From Escherichia coli (lineage in GTDB: Bacteria; Pseudomonadota; Gammaproteobacteria; Enterobacterales; Enterobacteriaceae): DNA of 64,000 nt. The stretch lies in NCBI RefSeq assembly GCF_003018235.1, contig NZ_CP027437.1, one strand, 5' to 3'. Position numbers and translations under genes: made by a program. This document shows positions 18,497 to 61,528 of the stretch, one piece after another. A model generated the notes under the pieces. That model saw only the letters and a list, made by a program, of their open reading frames with translations, searched no databases and was not told the DNA's origin. The stretch's first letter is position 1. Each line of letters opens with the position of its first letter.

Positions 18497-18501
<5 letters not shown>
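15652..18501 (+). CDS. rcsC: Hybrid sensor kinase RcsC
   Basis: 949 aa with an HisKA H-box (SHELRTP), ATPase domain and C-terminal receiver. It is convergent with rcsB. Confidence 0.9.
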
Positions 18502-18700
<199 letters not shown>

Positions 18701-22351: not shown

Positions 22352-22444
22352 AAAAAAAACCGGATGCGAGGCATCCGGTTGAAATAGGGGTAAACAGACA
22401 TTCAGAAATGAATGACGGTAATAAATAAAGTTAATGATGATAGC
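22352..22444 (-). ncRNA. micF: MicF antisense sRNA
   Basis: The plus strand carries the exact reverse complement of the micF body (…gctatcatcattaactttatttattaccgtcattcatttctgaatgtctgtttacccctatttcaaccggatgcctcgcatccggtttttttt), divergent from ompC. Confidence 0.9.
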
Positions 22445-22763
22445 GGGAGTTATTCTAGTTGCGAGTGAAGGTTTTGTTTTGACATTCAGTGCTGTCAAAT
22501 ACTTAAGAATAAGTTATTGATTTTAACCTTGAATTATTATTGCTTGATGTTAGGTGCTTATTTCGCCATTCCGCAATAATCTTAAAAAGTTCCCTTCTAT
22601 TTACATTTTGAAACATCTATAGCGATAAATGAAACATCTTAAAAGTTTTAGTATCATATTCGTGTTGGATTATTCTGCATTTTTGGGGAGAATGGACTTG
22701 CCGACTGATTAATGAGGGTTAATCAGTATGCAGTGGCATAAAAAAGCAAATAAAGGCATATAA

Positions 22764-47902: not shown

Positions 47903-48043
47903 TGTGCCCCCTCGCGCTGGTTAAGAAAACAAGCTCAGATTTTTTGTAAAGAATCTGTCACGCTAAAAGATGTCGAACAAAAAACAATCACCTTCATCAT
48001 CTTTTTTACATAAAAACAATTAAAAACAATAATTTACATACAT

Positions 48044-48141
48044 GATGATGATGGCGATAAAATCATAAAAATGCGCTTTTTTCCGCGCCGACCCGCCCCG
48101 TGGACAGGCCCACCCCACCAGGAGGACCCGCAAAAAAGGCG
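48044..48141. repeat. Copy 1 of a roughly 100-bp island-internal direct repeat (TGAT-N9-ATCA dyad ... ccgcgccgacccgccccgtgga...accaggaggaccc)
   Basis: About 80% identical to 50594..50690. Each copy sits just past the terminator of one minus-strand gene and upstream of the next. Confidence 0.7.
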
Positions 48142-48169
48142 GCATATTTGCCGCCCTGTAAACTGTGTA

Positions 48170-50065
48170 TCAGCCGGAAGCCGTACCGCTCGATTTGACC
48201 ATGCCGCGATAGTCCAGCGCGGCCACACCGGCATCAATACGAACCTTCCAGGCGACACCGTCAACGATGAAGCCTTCCTGCTGTTCAAGGTAAGGCTCGT
48301 CATTACCATCAAGATAAGCCACCTCGATTGTGTCCGTTCCCTGTGCTGAAAGCATGTACCATTGATTCACACTAACATCATCCAGACGAGGATCGACAAT
48401 AATATCCAGTAGCTTGTGATACGGGTTAAATATGCCGCTGTTTTTATCGGCCCCGAAAGGTGCGGTTGAATTAATCATTTGCAACGCGCGATCTTCCAGT
48501 GCTGCCGGAACTAACAGGAATTTAGGTGCAATGTTCAGCACCTCGCCGTTTTTATCTTTCTGTATGCGCATAGCGTGACGTGCTGCACTAAGCCCCGGCG
48601 TCGTCATGCCAAGATCGATAAGGTTGTTGTGTTTTTTATCAAACAAGGCCACACCATCAGACAGCTTGCCGTTTCCTGTAAGTACCAGATTAACCAGATT
48701 GCCAACCGTTCTGGCTGCTGCACGCCCCATAGCCATTGGCACGGTAGACAACTGATCAAGGTCATCATTGATTATCGCCTGGCGGGTAATACTGAAAATA
48801 TTCCCGTATGTAGCCAGCGCGATTGGCTCACCGCGATCGCTGGTGGTGATGTATTTATATTCTGCCCCTTCCGGCACTTTGTTTAATGTTGAAAAACCAT
48901 TCAGGCCAACGCGGCGGGCTTCACGGAAGTTTGACAGAGAACCTTTTTTAGTCCACTGGCGGAATGTTTCGCCGCTGTGCTCCCAGCCTGCCAGCACTGA
49001 TTTTTCAGCGCCACCAGCCAGGATGTAAGTAAAATCGCTGCTGCTGTGAGTGAATGCCGCATTAACAATCTGCGAACGCGTGCTGTAGCTGCCTGTGCTT
49101 ATGCCACGATGGGTTAATGATGCCTGTGCCATATCGAAAAGGCTCATCATGGCGTAAGGATTGCCGCGTTCGGCCTGTTCGTGACCAAGACGTGCGTTAA
49201 GCCCCTGACGCATGGCATCGCCGGTTATGTTGCCGTTATCCGTATACGCGTAGTAAAGATTTGCGGGGGTGTTTTTGTTGGTGGGTGTCGATTCCTTGCC
49301 CATAGCCAATAAAAGGCGTTCGCGCGCATCCTCAACGCTACAACCTGCGTCTGCCAGGCAGTTAATAGCCAGGTCGTTATATTTCCCGTTGAACGTGCCA
49401 AACAATTCGCGAATGCCGTTTAGTCGTTCCTGTTCGCCGCTGGCTTTGTTCTGGTTGATCATGTTTTTGATACTTTCCGGCATATTTGAAAAATCTCCGA
49501 TTCGTTTTGATTCAATTCTGGCCATTGCTGTAATCGCGGGTATAACCTCATCTGCGAAGCCGTTAGCCTTACACTCATTGCCATCCATCCAGGTTTCCGC
49601 CTCCATCATGGCGGTGATTTCCTGTTTGCTTTTTCCCGTTCTTCCGGCGTAGGTTTCCGCCATCGTGTCGCCCAGCTTGTCCATCAGGTCAGCAAAGCGG
49701 CGAACGTCGCCCGACACGCCAGAAGTAACACCACGGGGGGCATGTATCATCATCATTGCGTTAGCGGGCATCACGATGTGATCGCCACACATGGCAATAA
49801 ACGAGGCCATAGAAGCCGCTATGCCTTCAATGTGTACGATTTTTTTCGCCGGATGATTTTTCAGGGCGTTATAGATAGCCAGCCCCTGAAAGATGTCGCC
49901 GCCTGGTGAATGGATACGCAAATGGATTTCAGACACGTCACCACACGCGCTTATCTGGTCGGTTAATGTTGACGCCTGTACACCGTAACCGCCTATTTCG
50001 TCATAAATGCGAACGTGAAGGGCGTCGGCTTTTGCCTGTATGCTGTACCAGGATTTCATAGCCAT
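48170..50065 (-). CDS. Prohead protease (ClpP/S49-like) fused to an HK97-fold major capsid protein
   Basis: 631 aa. The N-terminal roughly 200 aa have the ClpP-type motif HSPGGDIF and a Ser/His context. The C-terminal roughly 400 aa resemble HK97-family major capsid proteins. A terminator hairpin ggcggcaaatatgccgcc+T6 follows the stop. Confidence 0.7.
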   Translation of the reverse strand: MAMKSWYSIQAKADALHVRIYDEIGGYGVQASTLTDQISACGDVSEIHLRIHSPGGDIFQGLAIYNALKNHPAKKIVHIEGIAASMASFIAMCGDHIVMPANAMMMIHAPRGVTSGVSGDVRRFADLMDKLGDTMAETYAGRTGKSKQEITAMMEAETWMDGNECKANGFADEVIPAITAMARIESKRIGDFSNMPESIKNMINQNKASGEQERLNGIRELFGTFNGKYNDLAINCLADAGCSVEDARERLLLAMGKESTPTNKNTPANLYYAYTDNGNITGDAMRQGLNARLGHEQAERGNPYAMMSLFDMAQASLTHRGISTGSYSTRSQIVNAAFTHSSSDFTYILAGGAEKSVLAGWEHSGETFRQWTKKGSLSNFREARRVGLNGFSTLNKVPEGAEYKYITTSDRGEPIALATYGNIFSITRQAIINDDLDQLSTVPMAMGRAAARTVGNLVNLVLTGNGKLSDGVALFDKKHNNLIDLGMTTPGLSAARHAMRIQKDKNGEVLNIAPKFLLVPAALEDRALQMINSTAPFGADKNSGIFNPYHKLLDIIVDPRLDDVSVNQWYMLSAQGTDTIEVAYLDGNDEPYLEQQEGFIVDGVAWKVRIDAGVAALDYRGMVKSSGTASG

Positions 50066-50250
50066 GCCCCTAACGTGTGCCCATACCAGTACTCTACCGC
50101 GCTGCGTGCAATTTGCCCTTTGGTCGGTACTGGCATTCCTGGGTGATTTTCCCTTATGAACTGCTGATAGCGTTCAATCTTCTCCATCGTTCCGGCGTCT
50201 ATGTGCACTGTTGCGCTTTTATCCGGTTTTCTGGTGTTGTTCTCTGGCAT
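50056..50250 (-). CDS. Hypothetical 64-aa protein translationally coupled to the capsid gene (MPENNTRKPD start)
   Basis: A strong GGAGG RBS lies 7 nt upstream of the ATG at 50250. It overlaps the capsid start by 10 nt. The six-frame ORF extends to 50283. Confidence 0.45.
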   Translation of the reverse strand: MPENNTRKPDKSATVHIDAGTMEKIERYQQFIRENHPGMPVPTKGQIARSAVEYWYGHTLGAWL

Positions 50251-50406
50251 AAATCCGCCTCCGTTTTGATTAACGGGCATCATTATTGATCGATAAAAGT
50301 AATAGATAAATCATTTTCTACCTAAAAATCAGATTATGATTTTTCTGATTATTTCGAGAAAAGCAAATCATTTGACGCATTATTGCTATTTTGGCAATAT
50401 TAAGTC

Positions 50407-50482
50407 TCATTCATTCCGGTAGTAGAAGTTCGTTTGTCGTACTAAAGCGCCTCCGGTAGCACCATCGGGGGCGCTTTTTTTG
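50407..50482 (+). ncRNA. Candidate small RNA, antisense to the leader of the capsid operon
   Basis: TTGACG-17 bp-CAATAT promoter-like element at 50372-50400. A GC-rich hairpin gcgcctccggtagcaccatcgggggcgc followed by ttttttt lies at 50447-50482. There is no ORF in this 425-bp gap. Confidence 0.35.
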
Positions 50483-50593
50483 TGCCTGTTTTTTTTGTAA
50501 ATATTTTCGGGAATGTTCCAGTGGTGAACAAAAAACAACCATAATCGACACTGAAATTTTTATCAGCCAAATATATCAATAAGTTATGTTAGT

Positions 50594-50690
50594 GGTGATG
50601 GTGCCATAAAAATCAAAAAATGCGCCTTTTTCCGCGCCGACCCGCCCCGTGGATGCCCCCACCAACCAGGAGGACCCACAAAAAAGCCGG
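50594..50690. repeat. Copy 2 of the roughly 100-bp direct repeat (TGAT-N12-ATCA dyad ... ccgcgccgacccgccccgtgga...accaggaggaccc)
   Basis: See copy 1. It is located after the perC-like terminator and 340 bp upstream of the capsid operon. Confidence 0.7.
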
Positions 50691-50708
50691 ATTGCTCCGG
50701 CTGTGTGC

Positions 50709-50984
50709 TCACTTCTGCGGGTAGTTGCGCCATACTGCTTTACCAATACCAGCTATCCCCATTTGTTTTTCAGTGCGATTAACTGACCTTTTCAGAGCGC
50801 CTAAATCATCCGGCGGCTCCGGTGGCCTCTGTGCCTTCCTGGAACATTCCTGCCGTCGCATTGCCACCTGTGCGCGTTCCTTGTCTGTCTCCACCAGCAT
50901 CATCACTTCACCCCATCGCGCCGCCGCCCTCCTGTAAAATCCTTTCGCCTCGAGTTCCTCCGCTATACGGTCATGTACCATCAT
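50709..50984 (-). CDS. PerC-family transcriptional activator-like protein
   Basis: 91 aa with the N-terminal motif VHDRIAEELEAKGFYRRAAARW, typical of PerC/Pch-like proteins. A terminator hairpin gccggagcaatccggc+T6 follows the stop. Confidence 0.55.
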   Translation of the reverse strand: MMVHDRIAEELEAKGFYRRAAARWGEVMMLVETDKERAQVAMRRQECSRKAQRPPEPPDDLGALKRSVNRTEKQMGIAGIGKAVWRNYPQK

Positions 50985-51994
50985 TCACCACCTCCCGCAG
51001 ATGGCGATAAGCTGGCTTTGCCTCCAAGTGGATTAAACCTTATCGCCTCTGTCAGAAAATCCGGCGCAAAATGCGCGTAAACCATTGTCTGTTGTATGCT
51101 CGCGTGCCCCAGTATCCTTTGCAGTGTGATTATATTCCCCCCGTTCATCATGAAATGTGTCGCGAATGTGTGCCGTAATACGTGGGTGGCCTGGCCTTTT
51201 GGTAAGTCCGGTTTTACTGACTTGATGACCTCCCTGAACTCCAGATAATCCACATCAAACAACTGTCCCTTTTTACCTCTCGTTACAAGTTCCAGAACGT
51301 CATCAGACACCGGAACAGCTCGCGCCCGTCCGTTCTTCGTCTCCGTAAACATTACCTTGTTACTGACTATATTTTCCCGTCGTAGCGTCGATGACTCCCC
51401 ATAACGCGCCCCCGTCGAAAGACACAAAACAGCCAGCGCGAGACAGTCGCCTTTGGCAATATTCAGTAAATGATTAACCTCATCATCACCAAGAAAACTC
51501 ATAGCCTTGTTTGGTGCTTTCAGCTTGCGTAATCCACTCAAAGGGTTTTCACCGTGATACATACCGCATTCGATTAGCCCCCTGAACATTCCTGATATAA
51601 CCGACAAATCACGGTTAACAGTCAACGGACTAAGGCCGCATCCCAGCTTGTCGGCTCTGTATTCCATGAGCATTGCGCGGGTTATGTTGCAGATTCGTGG
51701 ATCCCCCATTTCACGGATAACCTTCATCATGCGCATAAACGATTGTTCGCCGTATTCCTCCGATCTTCCGATAAACTCCATCCATAAGTTAGCCAGATCA
51801 GATAACAGGCGAATATCTGCGGCGCGTGACTCCCAGGGCTTATTATGACAATGAAGCAGTATGTATTTTTCGTAATCACGGGCTTTTGTCTGCGAGGGAA
51901 AAATCTTTCTTATCCGTCGCCCGTAAGCGCCATTTGGCCTTACGTCAACCAGCCAGCGACCATCCTCACACTTCCTTATCGCCATGCTCCACAC
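50981..51994 (-). CDS. Internal tyrosine recombinase (phage integrase family)
   Basis: 337 aa with a C-terminal catalytic region HVLRHTFAT...HASIQQTMVYAHF (H-x-x-R ... Y). Overlapping start and stop with flanking genes. Confidence 0.75.
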   Translation of the reverse strand: MWSMAIRKCEDGRWLVDVRPNGAYGRRIRKIFPSQTKARDYEKYILLHCHNKPWESRAADIRLLSDLANLWMEFIGRSEEYGEQSFMRMMKVIREMGDPRICNITRAMLMEYRADKLGCGLSPLTVNRDLSVISGMFRGLIECGMYHGENPLSGLRKLKAPNKAMSFLGDDEVNHLLNIAKGDCLALAVLCLSTGARYGESSTLRRENIVSNKVMFTETKNGRARAVPVSDDVLELVTRGKKGQLFDVDYLEFREVIKSVKPDLPKGQATHVLRHTFATHFMMNGGNIITLQRILGHASIQQTMVYAHFAPDFLTEAIRFNPLGGKASLSPSAGGGE

Positions 51995-52234: not shown

Positions 52235-52430
52235 ACTCCTCACTTTTACTCCTCACTTTTTGTTATTCCTCGCCTGCTCCTCACCTGTTTTTTTTGCTTC
52301 TGTAATGCGTTGTTTTGCAATGTATTTTTTATTCCTCACTTTTTGACCTATATACAGGTGAGAAAGTGAGGAGTAGCGCTGATTTTTTGTTAAATTACTC
52401 GCTACCCTCACTTTTACTCCTCACTTTTTA
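52235..52430. repeat. Iteron array (CCTCACTTTTT, at least 6 direct copies and 1 inverted) - candidate origin of replication
   Basis: Copies at 52237, 52249, 52280 (variant), 52333, 52405, 52417 and an inverted gtgaggag at 52361. They lie immediately 3' of the rep gene, AT-rich, as in SaPI/PICI origins. Confidence 0.7.
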
Positions 52431-53828
52431 CAGTGGGTGCACATCATCGCCATCAATAGCGATTACGCCGTCACCTTCCAGCTTGTACAGCCAGCGCCGG
52501 AAATTTTTCATCTCATACCCCAGCTTTTTCATATCGTCGCGGAGAAGGGCGATAGTGCACGCCTCCCCGTGTGCTGTCCTCGTTCTGATGCACTGCCATA
52601 GCGCGGCGTGATTCTCCGTCTTGTTTCCGGCCTCCTCGATGCGCTCCAGTTCAACGGGTGGGCGCGGTTTATCCACAACCACCAGCGACGTGATTAACTC
52701 CCCGTCAGCGTCGGTAAAAAGCTCCACCACACGTAAATCGTATGCGGCCTCTTTCAGTTCCTCCGCGTCCTTCATTTTGGTGCAGGAGATAACCAGGGCT
52801 TCACAGTCCGCACCTTCACGGCGAATACGGTATTCAGCGTCCAGAGATGCACGAAATGCACTGGAACCACGCGCCCCTTTCGTCTCATCCTTGCCGGAAT
52901 GGTGAACCACCAGCACCGTGGCCCCTGTGCGTCGTTTCAGTTCGTCACATCCACGGATAAACGCCCCCATGTCACGGGAATCATTTTCATCATTGCCGCC
53001 AAAGCAACGCGCCAGCGTATCCAGAATAATCATGCGTACAGGTTTACCCGTTTCCCGCTCCACCTGGCTGGCTGCGATAACCATTTCATCAACATCAAGC
53101 GGGGCCGCCGGAAAAATGGGACGGTTTACCAGATACAGATTTTTCACCTGCTCACCGTGCACAACCTCCCAGGCTTTTACACGACGTGGAACGCCGATAC
53201 CGCCTTCACCAACCACATAGAGAACCGCACCATGTGCAACCCTGCGGCCTCCCCAGTAGCGACCTGTGGAAACGTGACACGCCCACGATCCGGCAAGGAA
53301 TGATTTATAGGAACCGCTCGCCCCGTATATGCTGCATAGCGATACCGCCGGAATAATTCCCTTAACCACGTAATCAAGTTGCGTGTCGTATCCGGCAGAA
53401 CCAATGCTCATCGGTAGTTTGGTTTTCCGCTGGTGGCTTTTTTCTTCCTCCTGCGCTTTACCGCGCTCCCGTTCCAGATATTCGCGCCAGTTCTCCCGCT
53501 TCTGGCTGTGCATCCCATCTGGGTAATAATTCGCATCCCGTACACCTGCTGCCGCCAGCTTTTGCGCTATGGCATTAATGCTCGATGGCTTGATATGGCC
53601 TGCCCTGTACAGACGGACGCAATAGCGGCCCTCGTCGATGATTCTCAGGTCTGGCAGTTCAGCCAGTTGATCATCAGCCAGCACAACGGGAGGCACATTA
53701 TCGCCAGCAAGTCGCCCGTCCTGCTCCTGCCACTGCTTCGCGTGTGCCCAGGCATCACTACCCGCAAAAATAATGACTTCTGTCATTTTGTCGTAAGGCT
53801 GTTTTCTTAAGTTCGGTGCGCTCTTCAT
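52428..53828 (-). CDS. Replication protein: RecA/DnaB-fold (RepA-like) AAA ATPase with an N-terminal extension
   Basis: 466 aa with Walker A GASGSYKS and Walker B MIILDTLAR, consistent with the RepA/primase-associated helicase-loader family of satellite elements. Confidence 0.7.
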   Translation of the reverse strand: MKSAPNLRKQPYDKMTEVIIFAGSDAWAHAKQWQEQDGRLAGDNVPPVVLADDQLAELPDLRIIDEGRYCVRLYRAGHIKPSSINAIAQKLAAAGVRDANYYPDGMHSQKRENWREYLERERGKAQEEEKSHQRKTKLPMSIGSAGYDTQLDYVVKGIIPAVSLCSIYGASGSYKSFLAGSWACHVSTGRYWGGRRVAHGAVLYVVGEGGIGVPRRVKAWEVVHGEQVKNLYLVNRPIFPAAPLDVDEMVIAASQVERETGKPVRMIILDTLARCFGGNDENDSRDMGAFIRGCDELKRRTGATVLVVHHSGKDETKGARGSSAFRASLDAEYRIRREGADCEALVISCTKMKDAEELKEAAYDLRVVELFTDADGELITSLVVVDKPRPPVELERIEEAGNKTENHAALWQCIRTRTAHGEACTIALLRDDMKKLGYEMKNFRRWLYKLEGDGVIAIDGDDVHPL

Positions 53829-54712: not shown

Positions 54713-54794
54713 GTGTAAGACACAACATAAAACAACAGTGTCTTACACGTCAACCCTTTAAAATAGTTTTTTTTCGTGTATATTGTCTTACACC
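54713..54794. promoter_or_regulatory. Divergent promoter/operator region with three GTGTCTTACAC sites (one inverted)
   Basis: gtgtaagacac at 54713, gtgtcttacac at 54739 and tgtcttacacc at 54784. They lie between the minus-strand 67-aa gene and the plus-strand 61-aa gene. Confidence 0.6.
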
Positions 54795-54814
54795 AAAAAC
54801 ATGAGGGGTTAGAC

Positions 54815-55000
54815 ATGGCAACAGGTCCAAAGAATGCAAAATCACAATCTGTAACTGCACGTATTGCCCATGAAATTATTGAAGGCATGGAAAACGTGAA
54901 AGAAGATGGCGAAAGTACAGGGCAGTTTATAAGCGCAGCCATGCGTGGCGAGATCAAACGCCGCCAACGGAAAAAAACCAAAGAATCAGATAAGGAATAA
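54815..55000 (+). CDS. Small 61-aa basic protein (MATGPKNAKSQS...), candidate repressor/regulator of the switch region
   Basis: ATG at 54815 preceded by a GAGGGG RBS. The six-frame ORF begins at an upstream GTG at 54776, inside operator site 3. Confidence 0.45.
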   Translation: MATGPKNAKSQSVTARIAHEIIEGMENVKEDGESTGQFISAAMRGEIKRRQRKKTKESDKE

Positions 55001-55003
55001 CTT

Positions 55004-55147
55004 ATGCAGCAAGTACTATACTGGCTTGGCTCTTTGTTTTTATTTGCTTTCCTCCTGGGAAATTGCATCAGCAATGAACACGTCAGTAATGAGCGTGTAT
55101 GCAGGAGTGATGAAAAAAAGATTCCACGCCTCATATACAATGATTGA
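55004..55147 (+). CDS. Candidate 47-aa hydrophobic peptide (MQQVLYWLGSLFLFAFLLGNC...)
   Basis: ATG 4 nt after the upstream stop, with an AAGGAA RBS. It has a single predicted TM helix. It is below the 60-aa ORF cut-off, and a competing 68-aa ORF lies in another frame at 54945..55151. Confidence 0.25.
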   Translation: MQQVLYWLGSLFLFAFLLGNCISNEHVSNERVCRSDEKKIPRLIYND

Positions 55148-55477
55148 TTAGCTCGTGCAGCACTAAAGCAACGCAAGGCCAAAGAGCAGGAATAGCCCAC
55201 CAGCAAGCCAGCGCACTGATCACATTGCCCACCAGCCGCAAATGTGGCATTGTTGGCTATGCTCATGCGTTGGGGATAACGTGTAGCTTGTGTCGAGGGG
55301 CCACCGTAGCGGGTGGCCTTTGTTTTGCCTGTTATCCGGCAATTGTGGCGCTTCGCCACACGGTTGATATAATTCCCCTGCACTGATCCATTTTTTTCGC
55401 AGCAGGTTAATTGTTCGCAAGGGCGCTCCGGCAACGGGGCGCTTTTTGTTATGTTCATCGCGTTACGCCTCACACCA

Positions 55478-56189: not shown

Positions 56190-57449
56190 TTATACCGCAC
56201 GGATACCCCTTTTACCACCAGCAAGGGTAACGCCCGTTGCCGCTGCCTCAACAAATTCCCCCCACCAGCGCATCAGCACAATGCGTTTTTCCAGGTAGTT
56301 ACTGCGGTTGTAGGCTCTCCTTACTTCGTTGGTGTCCACGTGGGCCAGTGCGGCCTCGATTACGTCCGGCTCGAATCCTTCCTCGTTTGCTGCTGTGCTG
56401 AATATGGCGCGTAATCCATGAGACACCAGCACGCCAGCGAACCCCATGCGCCGTAATGCTGCGTTGGCGGTCTGGCTGTTCATCGGCTGGCGTGGGTCTT
56501 TCAGGCTCGGGAAAACATGCTCGCGGTGGTGGCTGATTGGTTTCATGGCCTCCAGCACTGCCATAGCCTGACCGCAAAGCGGGATAACGTGATCACGTCG
56601 CATCTTCATACGTCCGGCTGGTATCGTCCATTGTTGCTCGTCCAGGTCGATTTCTTCCCAGCGTGCTGACGATGCCTCAACAGGACGGGTTACGGTAAGT
56701 AGCTGCCACTCAATCAGTAGTCTTGTCTGCCGTTCTGTTGCCGATACGGATAAAGCCCGCATAAGCTCCGGTAGCTGCTCGGGGCGGATTGTTGGCATAT
56801 GTTTTTTTACTGGGGTGGGGAAGGCCTTGCGCACGTTTGTAGCCGGATTGGTATCAATCATCCCGCTGTTGGCGGCGTAATCCATAACTTCATTGATGCG
56901 CTGTAAAACCCGCTTGAGCGTTTCCAGGTTGCCGCGTTCCTTGATGGGGGTGAGTATCTCCACGAACCTGCGGGCGGTGAGGGTGTCTACTGGCGTGTCA
57001 CCGATGAACGGGAATACATATTTCTCCAGCGATCTCCATATGTCTTTAATTGTGTTGGGTGCAAGATTCTGGCTGATTTTCACCTGGTACCATGCCGCTG
57101 CTACATTTTCGAACGTGTTGCCCTGTCTCCGTTCCTCTGCTTCGCGTTTTCGTCGCTCGTGTTCCTGTGGGTCGGTGCCGGAAGAAATTAACGTCCTGTA
57201 CTCGCTACGGCGTTTTCTGGCATCAGCCAAGGAAACATCATCAAGCGATCCAAAACTCAGCAATATTCTTTTTTTGTCCAATGGGCGGTAGTAGGAAAAT
57301 CGCCAGAGTTTTGATCCAGACGGTTTGACCAGGAGAAAAAGCCCTCCGCCGTCCTGTAGGGTGTACTCCTTTTCCGCTGGTCTGGCTGCTTTGATCTGCA
57401 CTGTGGTTAATGGGGTTGTTTTTCTCGCCATATGTCTATGATTCCACAC
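56190..57449 (-). CDS. int: P4-type tyrosine integrase (N-terminal DUF4102 arm-binding domain)
   Basis: 419 aa. The N-terminus LTTVQIKAARPAEKEYTLQDGGGLFLLVKPSGSKLWRFSY is characteristic of P4/CP4-57-type integrases. C-terminal HGLR...Y catalytic residues. Adjacent to the tRNA. Confidence 0.85.
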   Translation of the reverse strand: MWNHRHMARKTTPLTTVQIKAARPAEKEYTLQDGGGLFLLVKPSGSKLWRFSYYRPLDKKRILLSFGSLDDVSLADARKRRSEYRTLISSGTDPQEHERRKREAEERRQGNTFENVAAAWYQVKISQNLAPNTIKDIWRSLEKYVFPFIGDTPVDTLTARRFVEILTPIKERGNLETLKRVLQRINEVMDYAANSGMIDTNPATNVRKAFPTPVKKHMPTIRPEQLPELMRALSVSATERQTRLLIEWQLLTVTRPVEASSARWEEIDLDEQQWTIPAGRMKMRRDHVIPLCGQAMAVLEAMKPISHHREHVFPSLKDPRQPMNSQTANAALRRMGFAGVLVSHGLRAIFSTAANEEGFEPDVIEAALAHVDTNEVRRAYNRSNYLEKRIVLMRWWGEFVEAAATGVTLAGGKRGIRAV

Positions 57450-57649: not shown

Positions 57650-57726
57650 TGGTCGGCACGAGAGGATTTGAACCTCCGACCCCCGACACCCCATGACGGT
57701 GCGCTACCAGGCTGCGCTACGTGCCG
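57650..57726 (-). tRNA. proL: tRNA-Pro (GGG)
   Basis: Plus strand is the exact reverse complement of CGGCACGUAGCGCAGCCUGGUAGCGCACCGUCAUGGGGUGUCGGGGGUCGGAGGUUCAAAUCCUCUCGUGCCGACCA. Confidence 0.95.

Positions 57727-61135: not shown

Positions 61136-61528
<393 letters not shown>

What the first reader, a model, noticed from the sequence alone, without database searches (positions are those of the whole stretch)
50283..50708. 425-bp ORF-free region with a candidate plus-strand sRNA antisense to the capsid operon leader
The gap between the capsid operon start and the perC-like stop has no ORF. On the plus strand it carries a sigma70-like promoter (TTGACG-17-CAATAT, 50372-50400) and then a strong GC hairpin with a T7 run (50447-50482). 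This predicts a roughly 75-nt transcript complementary to the 5' UTR of the minus-strand capsid operon. P4-type satellites use small immunity RNAs for transcription termination control, so an antisense immunity or packaging-control RNA is plausible.
Basis: seen in the sequence. Interest (0 to 1): 0.55.

Follow-up and report, generated by a model that had tools for sequence, protein, structure and literature searches.

The report
Short divergent RNA unit beside satellite cos site
The gene-free gap belongs to a phage satellite island and is mostly its DNA-packaging (cos) site, next to a conserved small promoter-plus-terminator unit that could make a ~78-nt non-coding RNA but probably does not overlap the capsid gene leader as first proposed.

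Summary
Window 50284-50708 has no conserved ORF. It carries TTGACG-17-CAATAT on the + strand, then the strongest hairpin-plus-T-run in the whole 64 kb.

- **The island is not P4-like.** It is a Gram-negative PICI of the EcCICFT073/EcCI042 type, integrated at tRNA-Pro.
It is lambda-type (cosQ GGGTCCT, N23, GGGCGGGTCGGC, an IHF box) and 72-85% identical to the cos regions of mEp460/Stx-type phages. A second direct copy lies 2.5 kb away.
- **The promoter and terminator look selected, but the RNA sequence does not.** Across three island lineages, neutral sites are 68% identical. The -35, the -10 key bases and the stem are conserved (100%, 91%, 95-100%). The RNA body is at the neutral level (61%), and no covariation is available.
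- **The RNA probably does not overlap the capsid leader.** Distant homologues place the capsid-operon promoter within about 100 nt of a conserved 64-aa ORF. The + strand RNA (about 50404-50482) would therefore be divergent from that leader, not antisense to it.

Best reading: a short, self-contained non-coding unit. Its terminator shields cos and the upstream genes, and any RNA role is cis. No expression data exist. Interest is modest.

The parts
50709..50984 (-). PerC-family gene, last gene of the upstream (replication/accessory) block of the island
   Evidence: Pfam PF06069, E 6.5e-39.
50679..50702 (-). Intrinsic terminator ending the perC transcription unit (AGCCGGAGCAATCCGGCT + T6)
   Evidence: Terminator scan. 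The same hairpin follows PerC in EcCICFT073 and pchE in Sakai Sp7.
50671..50677 (-). cosQ-like GGGTCCT
   Evidence: Aligns with lambda GGGTCCT, 23 nt before the cohesive-end nick. Exact pattern match GGGTCCT-N23-GGGCGG, 0.12 expected.
50636..50647 (-). cosN-like core. By analogy to lambda the 12-nt cohesive end is GGGCGGGTCGGC, with the nick between 50648 and 50647
   Evidence: Aligned to the ends of the lambda record and to the start of the mEp460_4F5 record.
50497..50635 (-). cosB-like stretch shared with lambdoid phages. It includes an IHF consensus TATCAATAAGTTA at 50574-50586 (+)
   Evidence: 72-85% identity to Stx phages, CP-1639, 1720a-02 and mEp460, at the position between the lysis genes and terS. 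IHF pattern.
50444..50482 (+). Intrinsic terminator facing against the island's genes: 14-bp stem, 6-nt loop, T7. A second T8 run lies at 50489-50496
   Evidence: The U.G and G.U pairs of the + strand stem become A.C mismatches on the minus strand. The + strand is more stable in all 5 variants. Fixed at -225 +/- 1 from the small-ORF ATG in all E. coli-subfamily loci surveyed.
50404..50443 (+). Body of the predicted ~78-nt RNA (start inferred about 50404-50409). No ORF, no conserved structure
   Evidence: 61% identity to the main lineage, against a neutral benchmark of 68%. RNAalifold finds only a weak 5' hairpin.
50372..50400 (+). Sigma70-like promoter TTGACG-17-CAATAT (extended -10 TG in the window)
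   Evidence: The -35 is invariant in the main lineage and TTGACT in the L062 group. The -10 is CAATAT/CAGTAT/CACAAT, keeping A2 and T6, while flanking spacers are 55-72% identical.
50327..50350 (.). Inverted repeat AATCAGA-N10-TCTGATT between the two divergent promoters; candidate operator (inferred)
   Evidence: Read from the sequence. It lies in a block that is 91-95% conserved. TCTGAT-type repeats recur in the Kluyvera-type homologues.
50282..50310 (-). Best candidate promoter of the small-ORF/capsid operon: -35 TTTATC, 17 nt, -10 AATAAT (8/12)
   Evidence: Relaxed scan. The block is 99% conserved against 68% neutral and alignable across genera. In L007 the scan finds TTTACG-17-TATGAT between the terminator and the ATG. 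The exact hexamers are inferred.
50056..50250 (-). Conserved 64-aa ORF (listed as 75 aa from ATG 50283) that overlaps the capsid-fusion start by 10 nt; first gene of the capsid operon
   Evidence: Conserved in E. coli 042, O157, Kluyvera, Yersinia and Moellerella. PHROG 4934, unknown function. Not annotated by PGAP.
48170..50065 (-). ClpP-like prohead protease / HK97-type major capsid fusion gene
   Evidence: Pfam PF25209 3e-54 and PF00574 1.1e-32. PGAP gives the same name to homologues.
47975..48156 (-). Second, direct cos-like copy (cos2), preceded by its own terminator (48132-48155). cosQ is at 48123-48129 and GGGCGGGTCGGC at 48087-48098, with N24 spacing
   Evidence: Direct repeats D1, D2 and D8, spaced 2548-2551 bp. 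Sequence. The second copy is present in the IMG/VR homologues.

Best explanation
The gap is the packaging and regulatory junction of a roughly 10-kb phage-inducible chromosomal island (PICI, EcCICFT073/EcCI042 type) integrated at tRNA-Pro.

Read along the island's own (minus) strand it contains, in order:
1. the perC terminator;
2. a lambda-type cos site (cosQ, cosN, an IHF box and phage-like cosB);
3. a strong hairpin whose U-tract is on the opposite strand;
4. about 40 unconstrained bases;
5. a + strand sigma70-like promoter;
6. an inverted repeat;
7. the promoter and short 5' UTR of a conserved 64-aa ORF plus the protease-capsid fusion.

The + strand promoter and hairpin together form a self-contained transcription unit of about 78 nt with no coding potential. 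It points away from the capsid operon and stops at the edge of cos.

Selection has kept where transcription starts and stops, not what is transcribed. The most likely role is therefore local, and it has two parts. First, the terminator confines divergent transcription from the capsid-promoter region, so that it does not run antisense through cos and the upstream perC and recombinase genes. Second, the RNA, or the act of making it, can at most work in cis against minus-strand transcripts that escape the perC terminator and read across cos toward the capsid genes.

**Shown here:** the sequence elements, their strand bias, their conservation pattern, the cos homology, and the position of the capsid promoter region in relatives.

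**Inferred:** that the promoter fires, the RNA ends, and the insulating or cis role.
For: - **Terminator strength and strand bias.** It ranks first of 171 sites in 64 kb. The + strand is favoured in every variant (-23.0 against -16.3 kcal/mol in the window), because the stem's wobble pairs are valid only on +.
- **Fixed position.** The T-run starts at -225 +/- 1 from the small-ORF ATG in every E. coli-subfamily locus surveyed.
- **Conservation pattern.** Among 26 unique variants in 3 lineages, identity to the window in the main lineage is: -35 1.00; -10 0.91; 5' stem 1.00; 3' stem 0.95. In contrast the upstream spacer is 0.55, the promoter spacer 0.72, the body 0.61 and the loop 0.57. Four-fold degenerate sites of the adjacent capsid gene are 0.68 identical.
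- **Promoter uniqueness.** It is the only + strand site scoring at least 9/12 within 900 nt upstream of the terminator.
- **Cos assignment.** Supported. It matches published PICI biology, with two functional cos sites in EcCICFT073 (PMC6092414, PMC6739421).
- **Non-overlap with the capsid leader.** Co-directional terminators lie 105-114 nt upstream of the ATG in Kluyvera-, Yersinia- and Moellerella-type relatives. The block 50240-50353 is 95-100% conserved in the main lineage and alignable to them.
- **A parallel in EcCICFT073.** The PerC-capsid gap there also has a second hairpin with T7 on the antisense strand, directly after the PerC terminator.
- **Precedent within this island.** The other strong + strand terminator (about 55415-55447) follows the + strand ORFs in the island's regulatory region.
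Against: - No transcript data of any kind were available.
- The promoter match by itself is at chance level, and one common lineage has the weaker -10 CAGTAT.
- There are only three lineages, so the conservation contrasts are post hoc and of low power.
- The stem never shows compensatory change (covariation term +0.45). The changes seen are a G:C to G:U, a C.A mismatch and a 1-nt deletion.
- The unit is absent from the 62%-identity subfamily, so it is not essential to this kind of island.
- The EcCICFT073 hairpin is symmetric and could simply be a bidirectional or backup terminator.
- A variable 5' part with a conserved 3' terminator is also the pattern reported for the trans-acting anti-sRNAs AgvB and AsxR (PMC4104026). 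Neutral-looking divergence therefore does not exclude a targeting domain.
Confidence: 0.45

Rival explanations
1. First reader's model. A ~75-nt cis-antisense RNA pairs with the 5' UTR of the capsid operon and controls it, as an immunity or packaging-control RNA in the manner of P4.
For: The promoter and terminator unit exists and is conserved. A cis-antisense RNA needs no sequence conservation of its own, which fits the variable body. A weak minus-strand promoter-like site at 50528-50500 (8/12) could give a long leader crossing the hairpin.
Against: Comparative placement puts the operon promoter within about 100 nt of the ATG, downstream of the RNA. The 50528-50500 site is not conserved: TTCACC becomes TTCATC and AATATT becomes AACATT in the main lineage. 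The island is a PICI, not P4-like. No C4/CI family match was found at E <= 10.
Confidence: 0.12
2. A trans-acting, chaperone-dependent sRNA with a conserved terminator/Hfq module and a lineage-specific 5' targeting domain. It would act on host or helper-phage RNAs, like prophage anti-sRNAs.
For: Size, a stable terminator hairpin with a long U tail, an unstructured 5' part, and horizontally acquired context. The conserved-3'/variable-5' pattern matches AgvB and AsxR (PMC4104026).
Against: No Rfam match. No conserved seed: the body is at the neutral level. No target within the island stands out against shuffled RNAs. It is not PasB or Esr41.
Confidence: 0.12
3. No RNA gene. The hairpin is a backup or bidirectional terminator for the upstream perC operon, and the promoter-like hexamers are a chance match or serve another purpose, such as an operator.
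For: The promoter match is at chance frequency. In EcCICFT073 the equivalent hairpin abuts the PerC terminator and folds equally well on both strands. A7 and A8 tracts precede the hairpin on the minus strand.
Against: On the minus strand only UUU follows the stem, and the stem has two A.C mismatches (-16.3 against -23.0 kcal/mol). The -35 and the -10 key positions are conserved amid neutral flanks.
Confidence: 0.2
4. A DNA-level element of the packaging site. The GC-rich palindrome and flanking A/T tracts would form part of an island-specific cosB or bend, bound by terminase, by the 64-aa protein or by IHF.
For: It lies about 160-200 bp from the cosN-like nick, where lambda has its R2/R1 inverted repeat. 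EcCICFT073 uses an island-specific cosB (PMC6739421). The arms are conserved and the centre is variable.
Against: It is absent from cos2 and from all phage cos regions that share the rest of the site. The asymmetric wobble pairs and conserved T-run point to an RNA hairpin on one strand. No Rpp homologue was found in the two small ORFs tested.
Confidence: 0.08

Closest known systems
cos1/cos2 region of Gram-negative PICIs (EcCICFT073, EcCI042; Fillol-Salom et al. 2018 PMC6092414 and 2019 PMC6739421)
   Same: The gene order is the same: int, regulators, DUF4222, primase/helicase, PerC, a gap, a small ORF, a capsid homologue, then the 93-aa ORF. There are two cos sites with lambda-like cosQ and cosN. 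No terminase gene is present. The E. coli 042 copy is a direct homologue of the window region at 85%.
   Different: Here cos1 sits between perC and the capsid module and keeps a phage-like cosB. The two copies are direct and flank the capsid module. In EcCICFT073 cos1 precedes the rpp gene, cos2 is inverted, and the PerC-capsid gap holds no cos. The capsid gene here is a protease-capsid fusion.
Phage lambda cos (cosQ-cosN-cosB with IHF site I1)
   Same: GGGTCCT lies 23 nt before GGGCGG. There is an IHF consensus between cosN and the distal part. The site occupies the place between the upstream operon and the first head gene.
   Different: The last six bases of the 12-nt end differ (GGGCGGGTCGGC against GGGCGGCGACCT). 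No lambda R sites were seen. Cleavage was not tested.
P4 CI RNA / C4 antisense RNA family (satellite and P1/P7 immunity RNAs)
   Same: A short non-coding RNA in a phage satellite, proposed to control late functions.
   Different: There is no covariance-model match. The element family, helper type and location all differ. Published CI/seqA-like elements in PICIs lie in the Bro/alpA zone, not here (PMC10111431).
Prophage anti-sRNAs AgvB/AsxR and other island sRNAs (Tree et al. 2014 PMC4104026)
   Same: A short RNA with a conserved terminator half and a variable 5' half, convergent to neighbouring transcription, in horizontally acquired DNA.
   Different: There is no sequence or model similarity. 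The position differs: beside cos in a PICI rather than the moron site after PR'. No expression or Hfq data exist.

Membership tests
Gram-negative PICI (EcCICFT073 type) | Integrase at one end next to a specific attachment site | tested here: met
   Tyrosine integrase at 56190-57449, next to tRNA-Pro(GGG) at 57650-57726.
Gram-negative PICI (EcCICFT073 type) | Unidirectional alpA/primase-replication block followed by a small late zone. About 10-20 kb, with no terminase, tail or lysis genes | tested here: met
   DUF4222, an AAA_25/RepA-type helicase, PerC and the capsid fusion all lie on the minus strand within about 10 kb. No terminase or tail ORFs are present. The order matches EcCI042 and EcCICFT073. 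alpA itself was not identified by a family search.
Gram-negative PICI (EcCICFT073 type) | Carries the helper phage cos sequence(s) | tested here: met
   Two cos-like copies. cos1 is 72-85% identical to lambdoid phage cos regions.
Gram-negative PICI (EcCICFT073 type) | Induction, replication and high-frequency transfer by a helper phage | not testable with these tools
   Needs experiments. Shown for EcCICFT073 only (PMC6092414).
Lambda-type cos site | cosQ heptamer at fixed distance from a cosN nicking core | tested here: met
   GGGTCCT-N23-GGGCGG exact match, 0.12 expected by chance. Aligned to the lambda termini.
Lambda-type cos site | cosB with terminase small-subunit sites and an IHF site | tested here: inconclusive
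   IHF consensus at 50574-50586 and homology to phage sequence up to the terS start. The binding sites themselves are unknown.
Lambda-type cos site | Cleavage by terminase to give cohesive ends | not testable with these tools
   Only indirect support: the mEp460_4F5 record starts 5 nt before the homologous GGGCGGG.
Intrinsic (Rho-independent) terminator | GC-rich stem-loop immediately followed by a U-tract on the transcribed strand | tested here: met
   A 14-bp stem with 8 GC pairs, followed by T7 on the + strand. Strongest in the window. The minus strand has only UUU.
Sigma70 promoter | -35 and -10 hexamers at 16-18 nt spacing | tested here: met
   TTGACG-17-CAATAT, or 18-AATATT at 9/12. Not above chance by count; conserved across lineages.
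Sigma70 promoter | Initiates transcription in vivo | not testable with these tools
   No transcript data.
C4/CI antisense immunity RNA (P1/P7/P4) | Match to the family's sequence-structure model | tested here: not met
   No hit in the window at gathering score, and none in 50150-50850 at E <= 10.
Cis-antisense RNA to the capsid operon leader | Overlap with the operon's own 5' UTR | tested here: not met
   The promoter region of the operon is confined to within about 100 nt of the ATG in relatives, and the conserved block ends at about 50353. The RNA starts at 50404 or beyond. This is an inference from comparison, not from mapped ends.
Trans-acting Hfq-type sRNA | Conserved single-stranded seed | tested here: not met
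   The body is 61% identical against 68% at neutral sites.
Trans-acting Hfq-type sRNA | Terminator hairpin with a U-tail able to bind Hfq; chaperone binding | tested here: inconclusive
   The hairpin and U7 are present. Binding is not testable.

The most novel reading that the evidence does not exclude
A previously undescribed PICI-encoded small RNA, made divergently from the capsid-module promoter and ending at the border of the cos site. It would have a conserved terminator/chaperone-binding half and a lineage-specific 5' half. It would tune either read-through expression of the satellite's capsid genes and transcription across cos, or host or helper RNAs in trans. The antisense-facing hairpin in the unrelated EcCICFT073 gap would then mark a general PICI feature.
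Probability: 0.15. Interest if true: 0.55.

Novelty: new member of a known kind. Interest (0 to 1): 0.3.

Why it matters
If the RNA exists and acts, it would be the first regulatory RNA described in the late or packaging region of a Gram-negative PICI. That would bear on how these satellites keep capsid genes silent until a helper phage is induced. More immediately, the work re-annotates the gap in three ways:
- It is a cos site, with a second copy flanking the capsid module.
- It reveals a conserved but unannotated 64-aa first gene of the capsid operon.
- It gives a clear, cheap experimental test.

As it stands the element is a plausible but unverified short transcription unit in an already known kind of island.

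Tried and rejected
- **Rfam.** The whole window at gathering score, and 50150-50850 at E <= 10, gave nothing credible. The best hits (Aar E 0.21, STnc130 E 0.39) match only the terminator.
- **Known EHEC/EPEC island sRNAs.** Esr41 lies in SpLE1. The Pas sRNAs lie in lambdoid prophages. PasB is far more frequent and also occurs in phage genomes, unlike this stretch.
- **Sakai Sp7.** It is a different, capsid-forming PICI carrying pchE, and it lacks the hairpin. The published Hfq-CRAC data for Sakai therefore could not be used.
- **Coding potential.** There is no conserved ORF on either strand. The 28-aa + ORF is truncated in E. coli 042.
- **Covariation.** The stem is invariant, so there is no support either way.
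- **Trans targets inside the island.** The best duplex is not better than for shuffled RNAs. The duplex energies from that script looked inflated and are used only relative to shuffles.
- **LexA box upstream of the small ORF in Yersinia/Moellerella-type relatives.** The spacing is CTG-N9-CAG, not N10, so this was rejected (read).
- **Leader attenuator in the window.** The AATCAGA/TCTGATT hairpin is too weak, unlike the 14-bp leader hairpin of EcCICFT073.
- **Fold of the 64-aa protein.** There was no Pfam or PDB sequence hit. The single-sequence model (pLDDT 68.7) shows two helices after a disordered N-terminus, and Foldseek found nothing. Ribbon-helix-helix remains a guess.
- **Rpp homologue.** There were no PDB hits for the 93-aa and 75-aa ORFs.
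- **Intermediate lineages.** Genome, viral and metagenome scans gave only the ~92% and ~62% capsid-identity classes.

Full report
**Context**

The window is E. coli chromosome (ccm genes, narP, yejO, yejM, rplY). A roughly 10-kb island lies between yejO and tRNA-Pro(GGG) at 57650-57726. All of the island's main genes lie on the minus strand:
- an integrase at 56190-57449;
- a DUF4222 protein;
- an AAA_25/RepA-type helicase at 52428-53828;
- a second tyrosine recombinase at 50981-51994;
- a PerC-family gene at 50709-50984;
- then the gap in question;
- a small ORF, and a ClpP-protease/HK97-type capsid fusion at 48170-50065.

The same gene order is found in E. coli 042 and in CFT073. These are the published Gram-negative phage-inducible chromosomal islands EcCI042 and EcCICFT073. 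Such islands carry PerC variants, a capsid homologue and two cos sites, and are packaged by lambdoid helpers (PMC6092414, PMC6739421, PMC10111431). The island is therefore a PICI, not a P4-type satellite.

**Checking the observation**

The gap has no conserved ORF. The short ORFs listed there differ between homologous islands, because indels in the T-runs shift the frames.

The + strand promoter-like site is as described: TTGACG at 50372-50377, 17 nt, CAATAT at 50395-50400. It scores 9/12 in the 18-nt register. On its own it is not above chance, with 4 sites found against 4.0 expected in 3 kb.

The hairpin is real and exceptional:
- It has a 14-bp stem at 50444-50477, T7 at 50475-50481 and a further T8 at 50489-50496.
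- It is the most stable of 171 hairpin-plus-T-run sites on both strands of the 64 kb.
- It is clearly a + strand element. Its U.G and G.U pairs become A.C mismatches on the minus strand.
- In all five sequence variants the + strand hairpin is 3-9 kcal/mol more stable (z -4.18 against -2.41).
- Only UUU follows it on the minus strand.

Window 50482-50684 is 72-85% identical to lambdoid phages: Stx phages, CP-1639, 1720a-02 and mEp460. In phage 1720a-02 the match lies between the lysis genes and the terminase genes. In mEp460 it lies at the end of the record. A related record starts within it.

Aligned to the termini of the lambda record, the island's minus strand reads GGGTCCT (lambda cosQ), 23 nt, then GGGCGGGTCGGC where lambda has its cohesive end GGGCGGCGACCT. 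The pattern GGGTCCT-N23-GGGCGG occurs once in the window, against 0.12 expected. An IHF consensus lies at 50574-50586.

A minus-strand intrinsic terminator at 50702-50685 ends the perC unit just before cosQ.

A second, direct cos-like copy lies 2.55 kb away, downstream of the capsid gene at 47975-48142. It also follows a terminator, and it has N24 spacing. It is present in the homologous islands too. Two cos sites per island is the published situation for EcCICFT073, although their placement there differs.

**The capsid operon and its promoter**

The small ORF upstream of the capsid fusion is conserved in E. coli 042 and O157, and in Kluyvera, Yersinia and Moellerella relatives. It always overlaps the capsid start by 10 nt.

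The homologues begin at the position of the window's internal ATG at 50250, which has a GGAGG Shine-Dalgarno. The protein is therefore 64 aa, and the non-coding stretch is 458 nt.

In many relatives of the 62%-identity subfamily, a terminator on the same strand as the operon lies 105-114 nt upstream of that ATG. The sequence between terminator and ATG is alignable to window 50251-50353. That block is 95-100% identical between the window and the main E. coli lineage. The operon's promoter must therefore lie within about 100 nt of the ATG.

The best candidate in the window is TTTATC-17-AATAAT at 50310-50282. In Yersinia the scan finds TTTACG-17-TATGAT in the same zone.

Every minus-strand candidate below 50410 would start transcription downstream of the predicted + strand RNA. 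The two units are therefore back-to-back and do not overlap.

The only candidate that would give an overlapping leader is at 50528-50500. It is weak and not conserved.

**Conservation of the + strand unit**

The stretch 50290-50500 occurs in 143 of 5426 complete E. coli genomes, always at full length. It does not occur in phage records. From 37 loci I obtained 26 unique variants in three lineages.

Four-fold degenerate sites of the adjacent capsid gene are 68% identical between the window and E. coli 042. Against that benchmark, identity to the window in the main lineage is:

| Element | Identity |
|---|---|
| Spacer upstream of the -35 | 55% |
| -35 hexamer | 100% (TTGACT in the third lineage) |
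| Promoter spacer | 72% |
| -10 hexamer | 91% |
| RNA body | 61% |
| 5' stem | 100% |
| Loop | 57% |
| 3' stem | 95% |

The -10 reads CAATAT, CAGTAT or CACAAT, always keeping A2 and T6.

As a rough, post hoc figure, 12 of 12 hexamer bases identical at 68% background has probability about 0.01. For 28 of 28 stem bases it is about 2e-5.

The terminator's T-run starts at -225 +/- 1 from the ATG in every locus of the E. coli subfamily.

There is no covariation. The stem is nearly invariant. The only changes are a G:C to G:U, one C.A mismatch and a one-base deletion.

The pattern says that the start and stop signals are under selection and the transcribed sequence is not.

**Interpretation**

The most economical reading is a short, self-contained, non-coding transcription unit. 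It runs from about 50404 to 50482, is divergent from the capsid-operon promoter, and ends at the border of cos1.

Its terminator would keep + strand transcription out of cos1 and out of the antisense strand of perC and the recombinase gene. The RNA could act only in cis, against minus-strand transcripts that escape the perC terminator and cross cos toward the capsid genes.

Two observations fit this reading:
- The other very strong + strand terminator of the island (about 55415-55447) follows the + strand ORFs in its regulatory region.
- In EcCICFT073 the unrelated PerC-capsid gap also has, directly after the PerC terminator, a second hairpin with T7 on the antisense strand. That hairpin is symmetric, however, and could be a plain bidirectional terminator.

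I put this reading at about 0.45. The rivals are:
- **No RNA gene.** A backup or bidirectional terminator plus a chance promoter match (about 0.2).
- **A trans-acting sRNA.** Its variable 5' half would be a targeting domain, as reported for AgvB and AsxR (PMC4104026; about 0.12).
- **A DNA-level cosB element** (about 0.08). This is disfavoured because the hairpin is absent from cos2 and from all phage cos regions, and because of its strand asymmetry.

**Comparison with known RNAs**

No Rfam family matches. That includes the C4/CI immunity RNAs, which the P4 analogy would predict. Published CI/seqA-like elements of PICIs are in the Bro/alpA zone (PMC10111431). The candidate is not Esr41 or a Pas sRNA. 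A literature search found no RNA described at this position in PICIs.

**Verdict**

The sequence features are real. The gap is mainly a known kind of element, namely a PICI cos site plus terminators and a promoter region. The small + strand unit is a plausible, conserved but unverified non-coding transcription unit. It is more likely an insulator or cis-acting element than a P4-style immunity RNA. One Northern blot or dRNA-seq/Term-seq experiment on E. coli 042 would settle it.

Noticed in passing
window 47975-48156 and 50497-50702: Two direct cos-like copies (84-85% identical cores, 2549 bp apart) bracket the small ORF and the protease-capsid fusion. Each is preceded by an intrinsic terminator. 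cos1 has the lambda cosQ-cosN spacing (N23) and cos2 has N24. Which copy is used, and why the capsid module is flanked by cos sites, is unknown.
   Followed up: partly
window 50056-50250 (-): A conserved 64-aa ORF (PHROG 4934, unknown function) is the first gene of the capsid operon in E. coli, Kluyvera, Yersinia and Moellerella islands, yet PGAP does not annotate it in E. coli 042 or O157. The model shows a disordered N-terminus plus two helices, and no fold or family match was found. A ribbon-helix-helix DNA binder is a guess.
   Followed up: partly
L004 (NZ_CP066759.1 1752437-1766854): In this O157:H7 strain the homologous island sits inside a prophage terminase large-subunit gene, with split terL fragments on both sides. 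This is the helper-embedded PICI configuration described in PMC10111431.
   Followed up: no
window 50709-50984; L101 14959-15207; L097 11773-12045: A PerC-family gene (pchE in Sakai Sp7) lies immediately upstream of the capsid or packaging module in three different PICI types. In each it is followed by nearly the same terminator, GCCGGAG(C/A)AATCCGGC. The native job of PerC/Pch proteins might be to activate the satellite's weak late promoter.
   Followed up: no
L101 15380-15440 (EcCICFT073): The leader of the EcCICFT073 capsid module has a palindromic ATGATTATAATCAT, giving TATAAT on both strands. It is followed by a 14-bp hairpin plus T6 just before the ribosome-binding site. This looks like a leader terminator that would need antitermination.
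   Followed up: partly
window 50327-50350: An inverted repeat AATCAGA-N10-TCTGATT lies between the two divergent promoter candidates, in a 91-95% conserved block. TCTGAT repeats recur in the Kluyvera-type relatives. It is a candidate operator.
   Followed up: no
window 50981-51994 (-): This island has a second tyrosine recombinase (Int_N + Phage_integrase) between the helicase and perC. The E. coli 042 and O157 islands have an SSB gene at that place.
   Followed up: no
window about 55415-55447 (+): The second-strongest terminator-like hairpin in the window (-22.7 kcal/mol) also faces against the island's main gene direction. It follows + strand ORFs at 54776-55000 and 55144-55386. E. coli 042 and CFT073 have an oppositely oriented YlcI/YnfO-family gene in the equivalent zone.
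   Followed up: no
L005 1690-1930; L007 2440-2680: Runs of short direct repeats (GGTGAACA- and GTCTCCACC-type) lie just after the primase gene in the Kluyvera and Yersinia relatives. They look like the iteron-type replication origin described for PICIs.
   Followed up: no
window 22352-22445, 18501-18691, 61442-61467: Ordinary chromosomal RNA elements detected by Rfam: MicF, two naRNA4/REP-type repeats and the L25 leader.
   Followed up: no
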